Positions 22,392 to 26,267 of a stretch of DNA of 50,288 nt are shown piece after piece; the first letter of the stretch is position 1; every line of letters begins with the position of its first letter. A program made the translations under genes and the position numbers. The stretch is from NCBI GenBank assembly GCA_964497535.1, contig CAZCCG010000003.1:60436-110723 (forward strand), in the 5' to 3' direction. Under the pieces are notes generated by a model. That model searched no databases, was not told where the DNA came from, and worked only from the letters and a program-made list of their open reading frames with translations. Source of the DNA: an uncultured Gammaproteobacteria bacterium (GTDB taxonomy: Bacteria; Patescibacteriota; Microgenomatia; Levybacterales; UBA12049).

Positions 22392-23222
22392 CTATTGTTG
22401 TTTCTCCGGGGTATAGCACTGGTTGTAGAGAGATTTGGGTATGCTGTATTTCTGGATATCTGCACAGAGAGGCAAATCCGGGGTTTGAATAACAATTGCC
22501 CACGTACCATTGGTTTTTTTAGCATACCAACCGGTTCCATAGACATTGGAAATGTATCCTTGTGCATAATTGCCATCTACCTTCTGAACCCGGAATACAT
22601 AACCAGAGTTTTTAGAATCTTTGGGATCAATAAGACTAGAAAATTCCTGTTGTAGTTTTTGCTGTGCTGTATCTGCTATGCCACAAATGACATATCCAAA
22701 GGGATCGCTTTGGCTGGAAAGGCTGACAACGCACAGCGTTTTATCTTTGGAAAATTCTACCCTCATGGTATTCATTTCATCAAAGGTAGTACTGGAATCG
22801 ACCATGTTTTTTGTAAATCCCTGTGTCACAAAAAACGCAGTTATTTGAGTGGCCAGATTTTGTATGAATGGTTGGGTTACCTGGGTAATATCATTATCTT
22901 TAATTGATCCGGCGCTGCCCATGCCGTTTTGTGCTTTGGTACCGATTACCAGCATTGAACCAGTAAGGGGAATATGGGTGCCGTTTTGGATATAATCCCA
23001 GTCTGAAGTCTGGCGGGGAGTTCCTCCTGTTTTTAATGAAGTCACAAAACGGTTGAGAATTTGTGTAGAAGTGGAGGAGTTTGGGGGAGAACCAGCAGTT
23101 ATATTCTCTGAAACGGTAGAAGTGGGTTGCATGGAGGAGGATTTAATAGAAGATTTGTATAGTAAGACTACGCCGGAAATTACAAGCAAAAAAACAATTG
23201 CAAGGAGGATGACCTTTTTCAT
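22392..23222 (-). CDS. Secreted or membrane-anchored hypothetical protein
   Basis: Signal anchor MKKVILLAIV, Ser/Thr linker, paired cysteines. Confidence 0.7.
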   Translation of the reverse strand: MKKVILLAIVFLLVISGVVLLYKSSIKSSSMQPTSTVSENITAGSPPNSSTSTQILNRFVTSLKTGGTPRQTSDWDYIQNGTHIPLTGSMLVIGTKAQNGMGSAGSIKDNDITQVTQPFIQNLATQITAFFVTQGFTKNMVDSSTTFDEMNTMRVEFSKDKTLCVVSLSSQSDPFGYVICGIADTAQQKLQQEFSSLIDPKDSKNSGYVFRVQKVDGNYAQGYISNVYGTGWYAKKTNGTWAIVIQTPDLPLCADIQKYSIPKSLYNQCYTPEKQQ

Positions 23223-23267
23223 TAGAATCAGTATTGCACAGTTTGTAGCTTCTGTCAAAGAAAATTA

Positions 23268-23777
23268 TTATTCAGTGCGCTCTACTACTTTGTTGGCTTT
23301 GCGTTTGTGGATTGTTTGATGCTTGAACTGATTGGATAAGACACTAATATTCCCATCTGCCTCAAGTACTGCCAAATCTACCTCTTTTTCGCTTTCTACC
23401 CCGTGTTCGCGAATAGCAGCTTGTAGCTCACCTCGTGATATTTCCGCCTGTTCCAAGTGTTTGGATAGCACTTTGCCATGGTAAATCAACATGACTGGCT
23501 TGCCTTCCAGGAGAGTACTGACCTTTTTTGAACGAAACAAAAGGATTCCCAGAATCCGATTGATCACAAAAAGGGTAATTGCTGCTATGATACCGGCCAG
23601 AAGTGTCGTATTGGGACCGACCATGGCATTTTGTACGGAATTACTGATAAGAAGGATAAAAACCAGGTCGATGACTGATAGCTGGCTGATTTCCCGTTTG
23701 CCAAAGATACGGATAGCAATGATAATAAAAAGGTAGACAACAGTGGAACGAATAATGACGTCCAGATATGGATCCAT
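23268..23777 (-). CDS. DUF421/YetF family membrane protein
   Basis: RIFGKREISQLS..DLV, EGKPVMLI..G, AVLEADGNISV. Confidence 0.9.
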   Translation of the reverse strand: MDPYLDVIIRSTVVYLFIIIAIRIFGKREISQLSVIDLVFILLISNSVQNAMVGPNTTLLAGIIAAITLFVINRILGILLFRSKKVSTLLEGKPVMLIYHGKVLSKHLEQAEISRGELQAAIREHGVESEKEVDLAVLEADGNISVLSNQFKHQTIHKRKANKVVERTE

Positions 23778-23819
23778 ATCTCTATTATACATGTGAATGA
23801 CAAGTGGTACAGGAGAAGC

Positions 23820-23848
23820 TTGACATAGCCTATAATGTGTGTTATAGT
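23820..23848 (+). promoter_or_regulatory. Sigma70-type promoter TTGACA-17-TATAGT with extended -10 TG
   Basis: TTGACA 23820-25, TATAGT 23843-48; inverted repeat CTATAA-N6-TTATAG overlaps it. Confidence 0.8.
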
Positions 23849-24425
23849 CTCATTTGTGTCAATTTTTATAAATTGATTCTGGCCACCTATGCATATTGCG
23901 CAAACGGTGGAGTACTTTTACAAGGAAACAGGGAAATCAAATAGAAATAAGATAAATGATCGGGTACGGGATACCAGGTACTACACAAAAGTGGTGCTTG
24001 ATACCTTGTACCCGGTTGTGTATGGCGGCAAATCGGGATGAAGGCGTCAGCCTCATGGCTGGTGAGATTTTGATATTTTTCACCGGAAAGGAGCGAAGAT
24101 GCATCCACCGTAATGTCGAGGCCCAAACAGGCGGCGGGAGAGGGTATTTCCATTTTCGCCAGGCGCAAAGGCTCATTTGGGCTTGTTCGTTGACTCTTTC
24201 GAAGAGTTATCGACAAGCCCTGGCCGGGCACCTATCGGCCTCACAGGCTGAATCGGGGTGACCCAGGCCGGCGGAGCCATGCCTGCGGAGAGGGTAGAGT
24301 ACTACTCCCGCCGCCTCGCGTTCTTTAGAATGCGCCTTCCCAGTGCCGTTTCATGTACTTTTCCGGGTGCTATTCCCGCGTACAGCTCCCGGTGCGAGGT
24401 ACATTACAACTGAAAGGAGGTCTCC

Positions 24426-24536
24426 GTGAGGAGACTGCTGAAACGCAGGCCGGTCCTGCGGGTACCACACATTAAATTGGTCGACTATCACGGCGCCGGC
24501 CACGACGGCCAGCACGGGGGGCACGGCGTCAGCTAG
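24426..24536 (+). CDS. Possible 36-aa micro-peptide MRRLLKRRPVLRVPHIKLVDYHGAGHDGQHGGHGVS
   Basis: AAAGGAGG 5 nt before GTG; the start codon lies in a GTGA tetraloop hairpin. Confidence 0.4.
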   Translation: MRRLLKRRPVLRVPHIKLVDYHGAGHDGQHGGHGVS

Positions 24537-24612
24537 CGTGTGAAGCGCTGATCGGCTGATGCCACTCTCCAGGGGCGGACCCCGACTAGATCGGGGTTCG
24601 CCCCGCCCACAT

Positions 24613-24685
24613 GACGGACGAGTCGTTTCTTTCCGAGCGGCACCTCGCGGAAGGCGACTCGTCCGTCTCCAATTCTTTTTGATTT
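24613..24685 (+). terminator. Terminator-like hairpin
   Basis: 13-bp perfect stem GACGGACGAGTCG/CGACTCGTCCGTC followed by TCCAATTCTTTTTGATTT. Confidence 0.65.
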
Positions 24686-24913
24686 ATAATCCTGCTGTTA
24701 TAGCAAACCACACGGCGGTCACAATAGCGACTTACCATTTGGTCCAGCTTTTACAGCCGGAAAATCGAGAGTTTTTCTCACCCTGTTCCTTTTTTATCTT
24801 CCAGCTTCTTCACGTCCACATCATTTTCCATTCTAGAATCCTTCATTAAACAACTCATTATATATACATGCCTATATTTGTACTCAGTGGCGTGAGTAAA
24901 ATCACTGCTGTGC

Positions 24914-25167
24914 TTGAAAAATATACGAAAATGGTATATAGTTTAATTATTATTAACAACTGAAAACTATTAATCGCAAGGTGAGAATAACGATTTGGAT
25001 GGGGTATTACGAGGGGCCCTGCGAAACGAATATTTTTTTGCTGCCCTCTCCAAATCCGCTTTTTAACTTCAGTACACAAGAACTGTGTTTCGATAAAAAG
25101 ATTCTCTGGCACGCAAAAAAAGCGAATTTATTTTGATGAAACTTTTTTTGAGAGGAGGTGAACGGAT
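24914..25167 (+). promoter_or_regulatory. Promoter TTGAAA-17-TATAGT with ~220-nt structured leader
   Basis: -35 at 24914, -10 at 24937; stem 24992-25056 followed by a T-run; SD GAGGAGGT 8 nt before ATG 25168. Confidence 0.55.
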
Positions 25168-25659
25168 ATGAAAAAGAATGGAATTGTAACAATTCACGGG
25201 AAAGAGTATATGACAGTTGCCAGGCGGGTAGAATTGGCTCATCAGGATAAAGAACTACAAAGTATTGAGACTGAGGTTCTCAGTCACAATCCTATTGTTG
25301 TAAAAGCAACAATACGAGTTCAAAATAAAAGCTTTACTGGAATTAGTGCAGTAAATCCGGACAGTACACGGGTGATCGAAAAAGAAAACCCGTATGAAGT
25401 TGCTGAAACTTCAGCAGTCGGACGAGCATTAGGTTTTGCAGGATATGGGTTGATTGAAAGTGTTGCTTCTGCTGATGAAATGACACGCGCAACTTCTGCA
25501 CAGGCAACGCTGGATCTGCCTACACCAGAACAAACGGTTTGTGAGATTTGTGGTAAACCCGCTACCGAGCGGGAAGGTACTACAAAAGGGGGAAAACATT
25601 ATCATGGTATATTCTGTTCTACAGAAGACAGAACACATACCCGATGGCTCTGGAACTAA
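25168..25659 (+). CDS. Phage-type ssDNA-annealing-like protein (Rad52/Sak-like) with C-terminal zinc ribbon
   Basis: GKEYMTVARRV, E.AETSAVGRALGFAGYG, SVASADEM; CEIC...C...H. Confidence 0.6.
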   Translation: MKKNGIVTIHGKEYMTVARRVELAHQDKELQSIETEVLSHNPIVVKATIRVQNKSFTGISAVNPDSTRVIEKENPYEVAETSAVGRALGFAGYGLIESVASADEMTRATSAQATLDLPTPEQTVCEICGKPATEREGTTKGGKHYHGIFCSTEDRTHTRWLWN

Positions 25660-25678
25660 CGTTTTTCCCACGATAGTT

Positions 25679-25714
25679 CAACGTGAAGCAACTCATGTGA
25701 GCTGCTTTGCGTTG
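25679..25714 (+). terminator. 3' hairpin after the annealing-like gene
   Basis: CAACGTGAAGCAACTCA TG TGAGCTGCTTTGCGTTG, G.U pairs on + strand. Confidence 0.5.
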
Positions 25715-25721
25715 TGTGTAG

Positions 25722-26267
25722 TTAGGCACTTCGATAGAGCAGAGTTGGGTCTTTTCGTGGAGTAAGTAGATTAATAATGATCGAAAGGTAATAGTCTGAA
25801 TTGGGAATATTGAGAAAGTATTCGGAGGTTTTTTGGGCATGAAGTAACCGATAATCAAATTTTAGATTTCCATAATGAAACATTTTTCCCAATGCATCAG
25901 ACGTAGCAGTTGCTGAGCCAAATTCTGATAATTCTATCGCTTGATCTTTTGAACTGAAAATTCCGCTTTTGAGAATAATACGGTTATTATAGATTTCATA
26001 GTGAATTGATTCCCATTGAGCTACAATAAAAAAGATACCAATTGCGTAGATGAGTAAAATTCCGGTTAAGAAAAAATAATCCGCGGGGATTAAGGAAAAA
26101 ACTTGATTCCCCATAATAGCTTCTAAAGAACGAAACAATAATGACAGTAACACAACAATAAAAAAACACAACAGAGTCCAAAAGAAAATTCTAATTTTCA
26201 AAATAGCAGGAGATTGATTAATGCGAATTGAAGGAATCTCTATGGAACTTGGGTCAGCTTGAGCCAT
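25722..26267 (-). CDS. Membrane protein with bacterial PH domain (bPH_2-like)
   Basis: Two TM segments then YEIYNNRIILKSGIF...LGKMFHYGNL; TATAAT 7 nt before ATG. Confidence 0.78.
   Translation of the reverse strand: MAQADPSSIEIPSIRINQSPAILKIRIFFWTLLCFFIVVLLSLLFRSLEAIMGNQVFSLIPADYFFLTGILLIYAIGIFFIVAQWESIHYEIYNNRIILKSGIFSSKDQAIELSEFGSATATSDALGKMFHYGNLKFDYRLLHAQKTSEYFLNIPNSDYYLSIIINLLTPRKDPTLLYRSA

What the first reader, a model, noticed from the sequence alone, without database searches (positions are those of the whole stretch)
23820..24685. Candidate undescribed ~830-nt structured RNA with its own promoter and terminator
Seen: a consensus promoter (TTGACA-17-TATAGT, extended -10) points into a GC-rich block with no convincing long ORF; hand-counted lines reach ~65% GC against ~38% background. 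The block is tiled with hairpins: 23958-24017 (25 of 27 positions pair, 7 G.U), 24059-24086, 24179-24220, 24353-24404, 24420-24435 (GNRA loop), 24525-24563, 24572-24604, and 24613-24667 (13-bp perfect stem plus T-run). A 12-bp long-range helix AGGCGGCGGGAG/CTCCCGCCGCCT (24129-40/24305-16) closes a multi-branch domain. Most non-Watson-Crick positions are G.U, which pair only in the + strand transcript. Inference: selection on RNA structure. I could not match it to tmRNA, RNase P, SRP or group II intron signatures.
Basis: partly seen in the sequence, partly recalled or inferred. Interest (0 to 1): 0.9.

Follow-up and report, generated by a model that had tools for sequence, protein, structure and literature searches.

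The report
Orphan GC-rich structured RNA candidate
A 0.7-0.8 kb GC-rich stretch without a gene, sitting behind a strong promoter in a small AT-rich soil bacterium, folds far better than chance and matches no known RNA family, but no relative of it was found anywhere, so it remains an untested one-off candidate for a large non-coding RNA.

Summary
Window 23956-24667 is a 60% GC block in a 39.5% GC genome. It has no ORF over 114 aa and no Rfam match. The named helices all appear in the minimum-energy fold, and a near-consensus extended -10 promoter lies just upstream. Folding beats shuffles on a compositionally even core: z -8.8 on the + strand and -7.5 on the - strand. The energy gain on + is about twice that on -.

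It is not RNase P RNA, which lies split over two contig ends, nor tmRNA.

The reading "selection on RNA structure" could not be tested, because every homologue search came back empty. These were BLAST and a covariance model over relatives, class and phylum, phage and plasmid collections, pattern scans, loci holding the neighbour genes, and translated frames against billions of proteins. No RNA run is listed.

The block is one of several GC-rich islands found only in this genome; others encode small orphan proteins. It is therefore probably recently acquired DNA.

Best reading (0.4): an accessory large structured RNA read from the + strand, perhaps carrying a 36-codon ORF. Main rival (0.3): a decayed foreign gene cassette. 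Interest is moderate.

The parts
23820..23848 (+). Sigma-70-type promoter TTGACA-17-TATAGT with TG (extended -10); the predicted start is near 23855
   Evidence: 11 of 12 matches, TG present, best of 7 sites in 23000-25500. The function is inferred; transcription is not shown.
23855..23955 (+). AT-rich 5' leader with small hairpins (23858-23877, 23883-23910)
   Evidence: pair probabilities 0.96 and 0.99
23934..23946 (+). 5' arm of the closing helix / inverted repeat AAATCAAATAGAA; it pairs with 24673-24685
   Evidence: I4: 13 nt, 92% complementary, 726 nt apart; pair probabilities 0.95 and 0.89
23956..24019 (+). Long hairpin, 15+10 bp with 8 G.U pairs
   Evidence: pair probabilities 0.93 and 1.00
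24020..24128 (+). Poorly defined region with one firm hairpin (24059-24086) and an exposed Shine-Dalgarno-like GGAAAGGAG (24086-24094), followed by a 4-codon ORF
   Evidence: hairpin 0.91; the other helices 0.13-0.38; D2; sequence
24129..24316 (+). 188-nt multi-branch domain closed by the perfect 12-bp helix AGGCGGCGGGAG/CTCCCGCCGCCT, with two nested arms (24179-24220, 24221-24270)
   Evidence: I5. Used for covariance model R1.
24317..24404 (+). Hairpins 24317-24334 and 24353-24404
   Evidence: pair probabilities 0.91-1.00
24413..24436 (+). AGGAGG followed by a 7-bp hairpin whose GUGA loop holds a GUG start codon
24426..24536 (+). 36-codon ORF. It is the only ORF of 20 aa or more in 23850-24900 preceded by a Shine-Dalgarno motif. 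GC by codon position is 0.73/0.41/0.81.
   Evidence: No homologue among proteins of 22-70 aa.
24516..24667 (+). Three strong consecutive hairpins: 24516-24570, 24572-24604 (14 bp) and 24613-24667 (13 bp perfect plus inner pairs)
   Evidence: I1, I2
24673..24685 (+). T-rich 3' arm of the closing helix (TTCTTTTTGATTT). It may act as a terminator tail, but it starts 9 nt after the stem.

Best explanation
The block is a recently acquired accessory island, seen in this genome only. It is probably transcribed from its own near-consensus promoter into an RNA of about 830 nt on the + strand.

The RNA would fold into a 5'-3'-closed, multi-domain structure:
- a long G.U-rich hairpin;
- a 188-nt multi-branch domain closed by a 12-bp helix;
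- several further hairpins;
- three strong 3' hairpins.

I read it as a stable structured non-coding RNA of foreign, possibly phage or mobile-element, origin that acts as a scaffold or protein-binding RNA. A 36-codon ORF with a good ribosome-binding site may also be translated from it.

Shown here: composition, lack of long ORFs, the fold statistics, the strand preference, the promoter match, single copy, and absence from the relatives searched.

Inferred: transcription, the ends of the RNA, and any function.
For: - GC-rich and ORF-poor.
- No Pfam match in 6 ORF translations.
- No protein homologue for three frames. For 23890-24231(-) the only hit is a gene call from this same DNA. For 24354-24683(-), run against 1.84 billion representatives, there was one hit at E 1.3e-4 to a tandem-repeat protein, which I judge spurious. 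For 24414-24533(+) there was none.
- Core fold z is -8.8 on + and -7.5 on -, and -8.3/-7.3 with windowed shuffles. A GC-rich coding control gives -2.8.
- The energy gain over shuffles is 71 kcal/mol on + and 39 on -.
- The ensemble is best defined on +: 42% of bases have pair probability above 0.9, against 15% in shuffles.
- Three inverted repeats of 12-14 nt at 93-100% complementarity nest properly, one of them spanning 164 nt.
- The promoter scores 11 of 12 with TG on the + strand.
- The assembly is sound: contigs of 3 runs bridge 22400-25722 with 0 differences. These runs may be the source of the genome, so they are not independent support.
Against: - No homologue, so no covariation test was possible. 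Counts: 0 of 60 relatives by BLAST. In 400 class genomes, 4 had short matches of 20-29 nt and none was longer. 0 of 400 phylum genomes. 0 of 149 relatives and 0 of 149 class genomes with model R1. 0 in phages and 0 in plasmids. 0 for an exact 26-mer in metagenome contigs. 0 in 85 loci fetched through the two neighbour genes.
- The terminator is not canonical.
- The G.U count on + equals its shuffle expectation.
- Other GC-rich islands of this genome that do encode proteins also fold well: z -5.8 for C1:120250-120900.
- The island architecture (AT-rich promoter, GC-rich body, hairpin) is shared with those coding islands. The block could therefore be a broken one.
Confidence: 0.4

Rival explanations
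1. The block is a decayed, non-functional remnant of a horizontally acquired GC-rich gene cassette. It would be one of a set of such islands in this genome. The hairpins would be leftovers of terminators and palindromes from the donor, and the 36-codon ORF a leftover piece of the gene.
For: - The genome holds several GC-rich islands with the same layout that encode small proteins with no Pfam match: C1:120387-120827 (146 aa), C1:66619-67134 (171 aa) and C9:13181-13705 (174 aa).
- The 146-aa one was found in 0 of 100 relatives and had no homologue among proteins of 80-256 aa. It is therefore as orphan as the block.
- Only the 24426-24536 stretch keeps a codon-like GC pattern, 0.73/0.41/0.81.
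- The block is absent from every relative searched.
Against: - There is no overall 3-base periodicity: 0.72 against 10-12 for the host genes. This is weak evidence, because one apparently coding island scores 0.01.
- All six frames are broken.
- No protein homologue was found for three frames.
- The long-range nested helices and z of -8.8 exceed every coding island tested.
Confidence: 0.3
2. It is the mRNA of a 36-residue protein (24426-24536) with an unusually long structured 5' UTR and 3' UTR.
For: AGGAGG lies 5 nt before the GUG. It is the only ORF of 20 aa or more in the block with a Shine-Dalgarno motif. Its codon-position GC pattern is typical of a GC-rich coding sequence.
Against: - The ORF covers 111 nt of about 830.
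- The start codon sits in the loop of a 7-bp hairpin.
- No homologue was found (run with the 40-aa stop-free frame).
- A 37-codon sample is too small for the GC pattern to carry much weight.
Confidence: 0.12
3. It is a DNA-level element: single-strand hairpins that serve a mobile element, a recombination site or a replication function.
For: - With DNA parameters the + strand still folds at z -7.2, against -4.4 on -.
- A 13-nt inverted repeat brackets the block (I4).
- The 8-mer TGTTATAG is seen in the sequence at 23841-23848 and 24695-24702; I located it by eye.
Against: - It is single copy in the genome.
- No transposase, integrase or replication gene is next to it. The neighbours are a DUF421/YetF protein and a 163-aa protein of unknown function.
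- Cumulative GC skew does not turn here.
- The first copy of the 8-mer is simply the -10 box.
Confidence: 0.1
4. It is a highly divergent copy of a known housekeeping or mobile RNA (RNase P, tmRNA, SRP, 6S, a group I or II intron, OLE, GOLLD, ROOL or HEARO) that Rfam models miss.
For: Rfam models work poorly in this clade. RNase P RNAs of relatives score 27-104 bits against a cut-off of 100, and only 1 of 41 genomes is over the cut-off. The SRP RNA model hit 0 of 40 genomes.
Against: - RNase P RNA is found elsewhere, split over two contig ends.
- tmRNA is found elsewhere.
- A housekeeping RNA would be present in relatives, and the block is not.
- No Rfam match has E below 3.7 in the region.
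Confidence: 0.03

Closest known systems
Large ornate bacterial RNAs (OLE, GOLLD, ROOL)
   Same: Several hundred nucleotides long, many helices, no coding capacity over most of the length, function not evident from the gene context. The three names and their description as large ornate bacterial RNAs come from the abstract start of PMC12286853 in a search listing. That GOLLD and ROOL often lie in prophages is recalled.
   Different: - There is no Rfam match to any of them.
- Those families are defined by many homologues with covariation; this block has none.
- Its helices are longer and more perfect than I would expect of them (recalled impression).
- The host is a small-genome Patescibacteria-type organism. 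That placement rests only on one related record titled Candidatus Levyibacteriota.
GC-rich intergenic regions used to find structured RNAs in AT-rich genomes
   Same: A long, GC-rich intergenic region in an AT-rich genome is the signature those pipelines select for (abstract starts of PMC8723152 and PMC11109978, seen in the search listing).
   Different: Those pipelines accept a candidate only after homologues show conserved structure. Here that step fails, and other GC-rich islands of this genome are protein-coding.
RNase P RNA and tmRNA of the same genome
   Same: GC-enriched, structured and transcribed on their own. tmRNA shows similar ensemble statistics.
   Different: Both lie elsewhere in the genome, and RNase P RNA is found in most relatives. 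The block is in none.

Membership tests
Any Rfam 15 family (4227 models, including OLE, GOLLD, ROOL, HEARO, group I/II introns, RNase P, tmRNA, SRP, 6S) | Covariance-model score at or above the family's gathering score | tested here: not met
   0 matches in the whole window; the best match in 23700-24850 is snR52 at E 3.7, 22.6 bits against a cut-off of 45.
Bacterial RNase P RNA | Conserved P4 strand GGAAAGTCC, as seen in the first 80 bases printed for 12 relatives' RNase P RNAs, and a match to a clade profile | tested here: not met
   an nhmmer profile built from 12 relatives matches C4:80734-80944 (E 4.9e-38) and C1:393298-393088 (E 1.2e-44), not the block. The motif was not reported in the block.
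tmRNA | tRNA-like domain plus tag reading frame | tested here: not met
   ARAGORN finds none in the window; tmRNA lies at C1:88014-88436 (90.2 bits).
SRP RNA | Match to RF00169 or RF01854, and presence across relatives | tested here: not met
   no match in the block or anywhere in the genome. The block is absent from relatives. The model also finds nothing in 40 of 40 genomes of the order, so the model test alone is weak.
Group II intron | Domain V/VI match, and usually an intron-encoded reverse transcriptase | tested here: not met
   no intron family at E up to 10; no reverse-transcriptase ORF in or beside the block.
Repeated palindromic elements (REP/MITE-like) | Many copies per genome | tested here: not met
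   single copy in the 1.165-Mb assembly. Only one 27-29-nt hairpin resembles a repeat seen twice in one class genome.
Conserved structured non-coding RNA in general | Homologues with compensatory base changes in the helices | not testable with these tools
   No homologue was found in any search. The laid contigs showed no variant inside the block.
Expressed RNA gene | A discrete transcript with defined ends | not testable with these tools
   One search lists 4 runs of one study, none on record as RNA.

The most novel reading that the evidence does not exclude
The block is the first seen member of a new class of large, ornate, independently transcribed RNA in Patescibacteria-type bacteria. It would be carried on a small foreign island and possibly double as the message for a 36-residue peptide. 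The second ORF-free GC-rich island of this genome (C4:28480-29030) would be another RNA gene of this sort.
Probability: 0.25. Interest if true: 0.7.

Novelty: new member of a known kind. Interest (0 to 1): 0.42.

Why it matters
If this is a real RNA, it would add a large structured RNA to a group of bacteria in which almost no non-coding RNA has been described. My searches for such work were made, and I saw nothing relevant in the listings. It would also show that small foreign islands can deliver RNA genes as well as protein genes.

Its value is limited for now. It is a single sequence from a single population, so computation alone can establish neither its structure nor its function.

The wider pattern may matter more than this one block. 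The genome is 39.5% GC, yet it is dotted with 56-72% GC islands that are found in no relative searched. Each of the four I read in sequence has a promoter-like sequence ahead of it.

Tried and rejected
RNase P RNA was a serious lead. Rfam models RF00010 and RF00011 found none in the genome, although the protein subunit gene rnpA is present. I rejected the idea when a profile built from relatives' RNase P RNAs found the gene split across the ends of contigs C4 and C1.

Synteny gave nothing.
- The 163-aa neighbour has relatives at 66-74% identity in 5 genomes. None carries the block or the same neighbours. Only its coding part aligns.
- The DUF421 neighbour brought 80 metagenome loci at 65% identity or less. 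None gave a BLAST or nhmmer match to the block, and none has a GC island beside the gene.
- A GC-rich stretch in locus L024 turned out to hold a 182-aa ORF on the other strand and is unrelated.

Short BLAST matches of 20-29 nt in 4 of 400 class genomes look like chance. One hairpin matches a repeat element in G282. Three exact 17-mer matches in viral contigs extend no further than 19 nt.

Other checks that led nowhere:
- Model R1 on 32 of the 124 held loci gave only a 14.6-bit match at E 0.27.
- The GC-rich islands of the genome share no sequence with one another.
- Tertiary-motif words recalled from memory (tetraloop receptor, loop E) gave nothing useful.
- An attempt to score the mirrored structure on the other strand gave meaningless energies and was dropped.
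- The 163-aa neighbour stayed without a function.

No RNA holder is listed. One search gave 4 soil-metagenome runs of one study, all apparently DNA, and 3 of them may be the source of the genome. Run X4 has no contig over 23874-24543, which says nothing either way.

Supplementary files were not consulted. No paper was read beyond search listings and abstract starts.

Full report
**What is there.** The window lies in contig C3 of a 1,165,384-base assembly of 10 contigs, estimated 95.7% complete and 39.5% GC. A related record is titled Candidatus Levyibacteriota.

Between a DUF421/YetF gene (23268-23792, - strand) and a 163-aa gene of unknown function (25168-25659, + strand) lies a stretch with no ORF over 114 aa. 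From about 24000 to 24700 its GC is 0.52-0.625 in 200-nt windows, against 0.32-0.46 around it. The 400-nt maximum of 0.6375 lies above the genome's 99.9th percentile of 0.6075.

A promoter-like site, TTGACA-17-TATAGT with TG, sits at 23820-23848 on the + strand. It is the best of the 7 sites in 23000-25500.

**The fold.** The minimum-energy fold of 23855-24690 on the + strand is -388.6 kcal/mol, z -11.5. The - strand gives -331.2, z -9.15. The first 100 nt are AT-rich, which inflates such scores, so I repeated the test on the even core 24020-24670:

| Strand | MFE (kcal/mol) | Shuffle mean | z, whole-sequence shuffle | z, 60-nt windowed shuffle |
|---|---|---|---|---|
| + | -327.8 | -256.4 | -8.8 | -8.3 |
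| - | -285.9 | -246.6 | -7.5 | -7.3 |

With DNA parameters z is -7.2 on + and -4.4 on -.

Three inverted repeats of 12-14 nt are 93-100% complementary, and one of them closes a 164-nt multi-branch domain. A further helix joins 23934-23946 to 24673-24685.

On the + strand 42% of bases have a pair probability above 0.9, against 15% +/- 8% in shuffles. The genome's own tmRNA reaches 30%.

**Limits of the intrinsic evidence.**
The + strand has 36 G.U pairs, and its shuffles have 32.8 +/- 4.3. Only the - strand is depleted, with 15 against 24.3 +/- 3.6.
- GC-rich islands of this genome that carry ORFs also fold better than shuffles: z -2.8, -3.5 and -5.8.
- The 3-base periodicity test (0.72 for the block, 10-12 for the host genes) is not reliable here. 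One island with a clear 171-aa ORF scores 0.01.
- The terminator is not canonical. The T-run begins 9 nt after the stem.

**Known families.**
- Rfam gives nothing at gathering score in the window. In the region it gives only E 3.7-7.7 matches.
- ARAGORN finds no tRNA or tmRNA in the window. tmRNA lies at C1:88014-88436.
- RNase P RNA seemed missing although rnpA is present. Of 41 genomes (40 relatives plus this one), 35 have an RNase P RNA match at E 0.001 or better. Only 1 of the 41 is over Rfam's cut-off. A profile of 12 of these RNAs finds the gene of this genome split across the ends of C4 and C1. The block is therefore not RNase P RNA.
- SRP and 6S models match nothing in the genome.

**Homologue search.** All of the following gave nothing usable.

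| Search | Result |
|---|---|
| BLAST, relatives | 0 of 60 |
| BLAST, class | only 20-29-nt bits, in 4 of 400 genomes |
| BLAST, phylum | 0 of 400 |
| Phage collection | 0 |
| Plasmid collection | 0 |
| Model R1 (24125-24320, 76 pairs), relatives | 0 of 149 |
| Model R1, class | 0 of 149 |
| Exact 26-mer, metagenome contigs | 0 |
| Four patterns, viral contigs | 0, apart from three chance 17-mers |
| Loci of the 163-aa neighbour | 0 of 5 |
| Loci of the DUF421 neighbour | 0 of 80 |

Translated frames, which would also catch spurious gene calls on homologous DNA, gave nothing either:
- Frame 23890-24231(-) found only a gene call from this same DNA.
- Frame 24354-24683(-), run against 1.84 billion representatives, found one repeat-driven hit at E 1.3e-4.
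- Frame 24414-24533(+) found nothing.

Contigs of three runs from one study bridge the block with 0 differences. No variant lies inside it, and no other contig of those runs matches it at 80% likeness. So the assembly is sound, but there is no natural variation to read.

**Context.** The genome has other GC-rich islands.
- Three hold small ORFs with a Shine-Dalgarno motif; two of the three also have a signal peptide. All three lack a Pfam match.
- One of these, the 146-aa ORF, was found in 0 of 100 relatives and had no homologue.
- A fourth island, C4:28480-29030, is ORF-poor, has no Rfam match and folds at z -5.9. It was found in 0 of 80 relatives.
- The islands share no sequence with one another.

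The block therefore belongs to a set of islands found only in this genome, which points to recent acquisition.

**Small ORF.** Inside the block one ORF stands out. The 36 codons at 24426-24536 follow AGGAGG at a 5-nt spacing. Their GC by codon position is 0.73/0.41/0.81, and the GUG start lies in the loop of a 7-bp hairpin.

**Verdict.** Whether selection acts on RNA structure cannot be shown without homologues or expression data.

My weights:
- accessory structured RNA, 0.4;
- decayed foreign cassette, 0.3;
- small-protein mRNA, 0.12;
- DNA-level element, 0.1;
- divergent known RNA, 0.03;
- the rest for artefact or something unforeseen.

Noticed in passing
Whole genome G000 and 39 relatives of the same order (outside the window): No trace of the signal recognition particle was found. 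The small SRP RNA model RF00169 matched 0 of 40 genomes. The SRP54 M-domain PF02978 matched 0 of 40. In G000 the SRP54-type GTPase domain PF00448 (0 of 1) and the large SRP RNA model RF01854 (0 of 1) also matched nothing. The two protein-domain searches (PF02978, PF00448) ring in 14 of 14 control genomes, RF00169 in 12 of 14 and RF01854 in 7 of 14. I saw nothing on this in the listings of two paper searches. Either the pathway is lost or it is very divergent in this order.
   Followed up: partly
G000 C4:80734-80944 (+) and C1:393298-393088 (-), outside the window: The RNase P RNA gene is split across two contig ends, so the end of C4 very likely joins the end of C1. Across the order, RNase P RNAs score far below Rfam's cut-off: 1 of 41 genomes is over it and 35 of 41 reach E 0.001 or better.
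   Followed up: yes
G000 C4:28480-29030 (locus L032:681-1231), outside the window: This is a second GC-rich (0.55) island with no ORF over 79 aa. It has no Rfam match at E 0.01 or better, folds at z -5.9 (+) and -4.3 (-), and was found in 0 of 80 relatives. It may be another RNA gene or another remnant.
   Followed up: partly
G000 C1:120387-120827, C1:66619-67134 (-) and C9:13181-13705, outside the window: These are GC-rich (0.56-0.72) single-gene islands encoding small proteins of 146, 171 and 174 aa. None has a Pfam family, and two have signal-peptide-like starts. An AT-rich promoter-like sequence can be read ahead of the C1:120387 and C9:13181 ORFs (I located them by eye), and a terminator-like hairpin after the two C1 ORFs. 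The 146-aa protein has no homologue in 100 relatives or in the protein collection at 80-256 aa.
   Followed up: partly
window 25168-25659 (+): The 163-aa protein downstream matches phage family phrog_11717 (E 1.4e-14, function unknown) and ends in a Cys-rich stretch. Relatives at 66-74% identity sit in five other genomes in unrelated gene contexts, so the gene itself may move.
   Followed up: partly
window 23841-23848 and 24695-24702: The 8-mer TGTTATAG occurs on both sides of the block, and the first copy is the -10 box of the promoter. I read this by eye from the sequence. It could be chance or a trace of insertion.
   Followed up: no
window 24084-24096 and 24623-24635: The exposed GGAAAGGAG stretch can pair with the inner part of the last hairpin (13 nt, 85% complementary, I7). 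That would be a possible long-range or alternative pairing.
   Followed up: no
G282 loci L026 and L030 (a genome of the same class): A short hairpin (CCCCGACTAGATCGGGG) like that at window 24580-24608 occurs twice in G282. Both copies sit inside copies of a repeated palindromic element.
   Followed up: no
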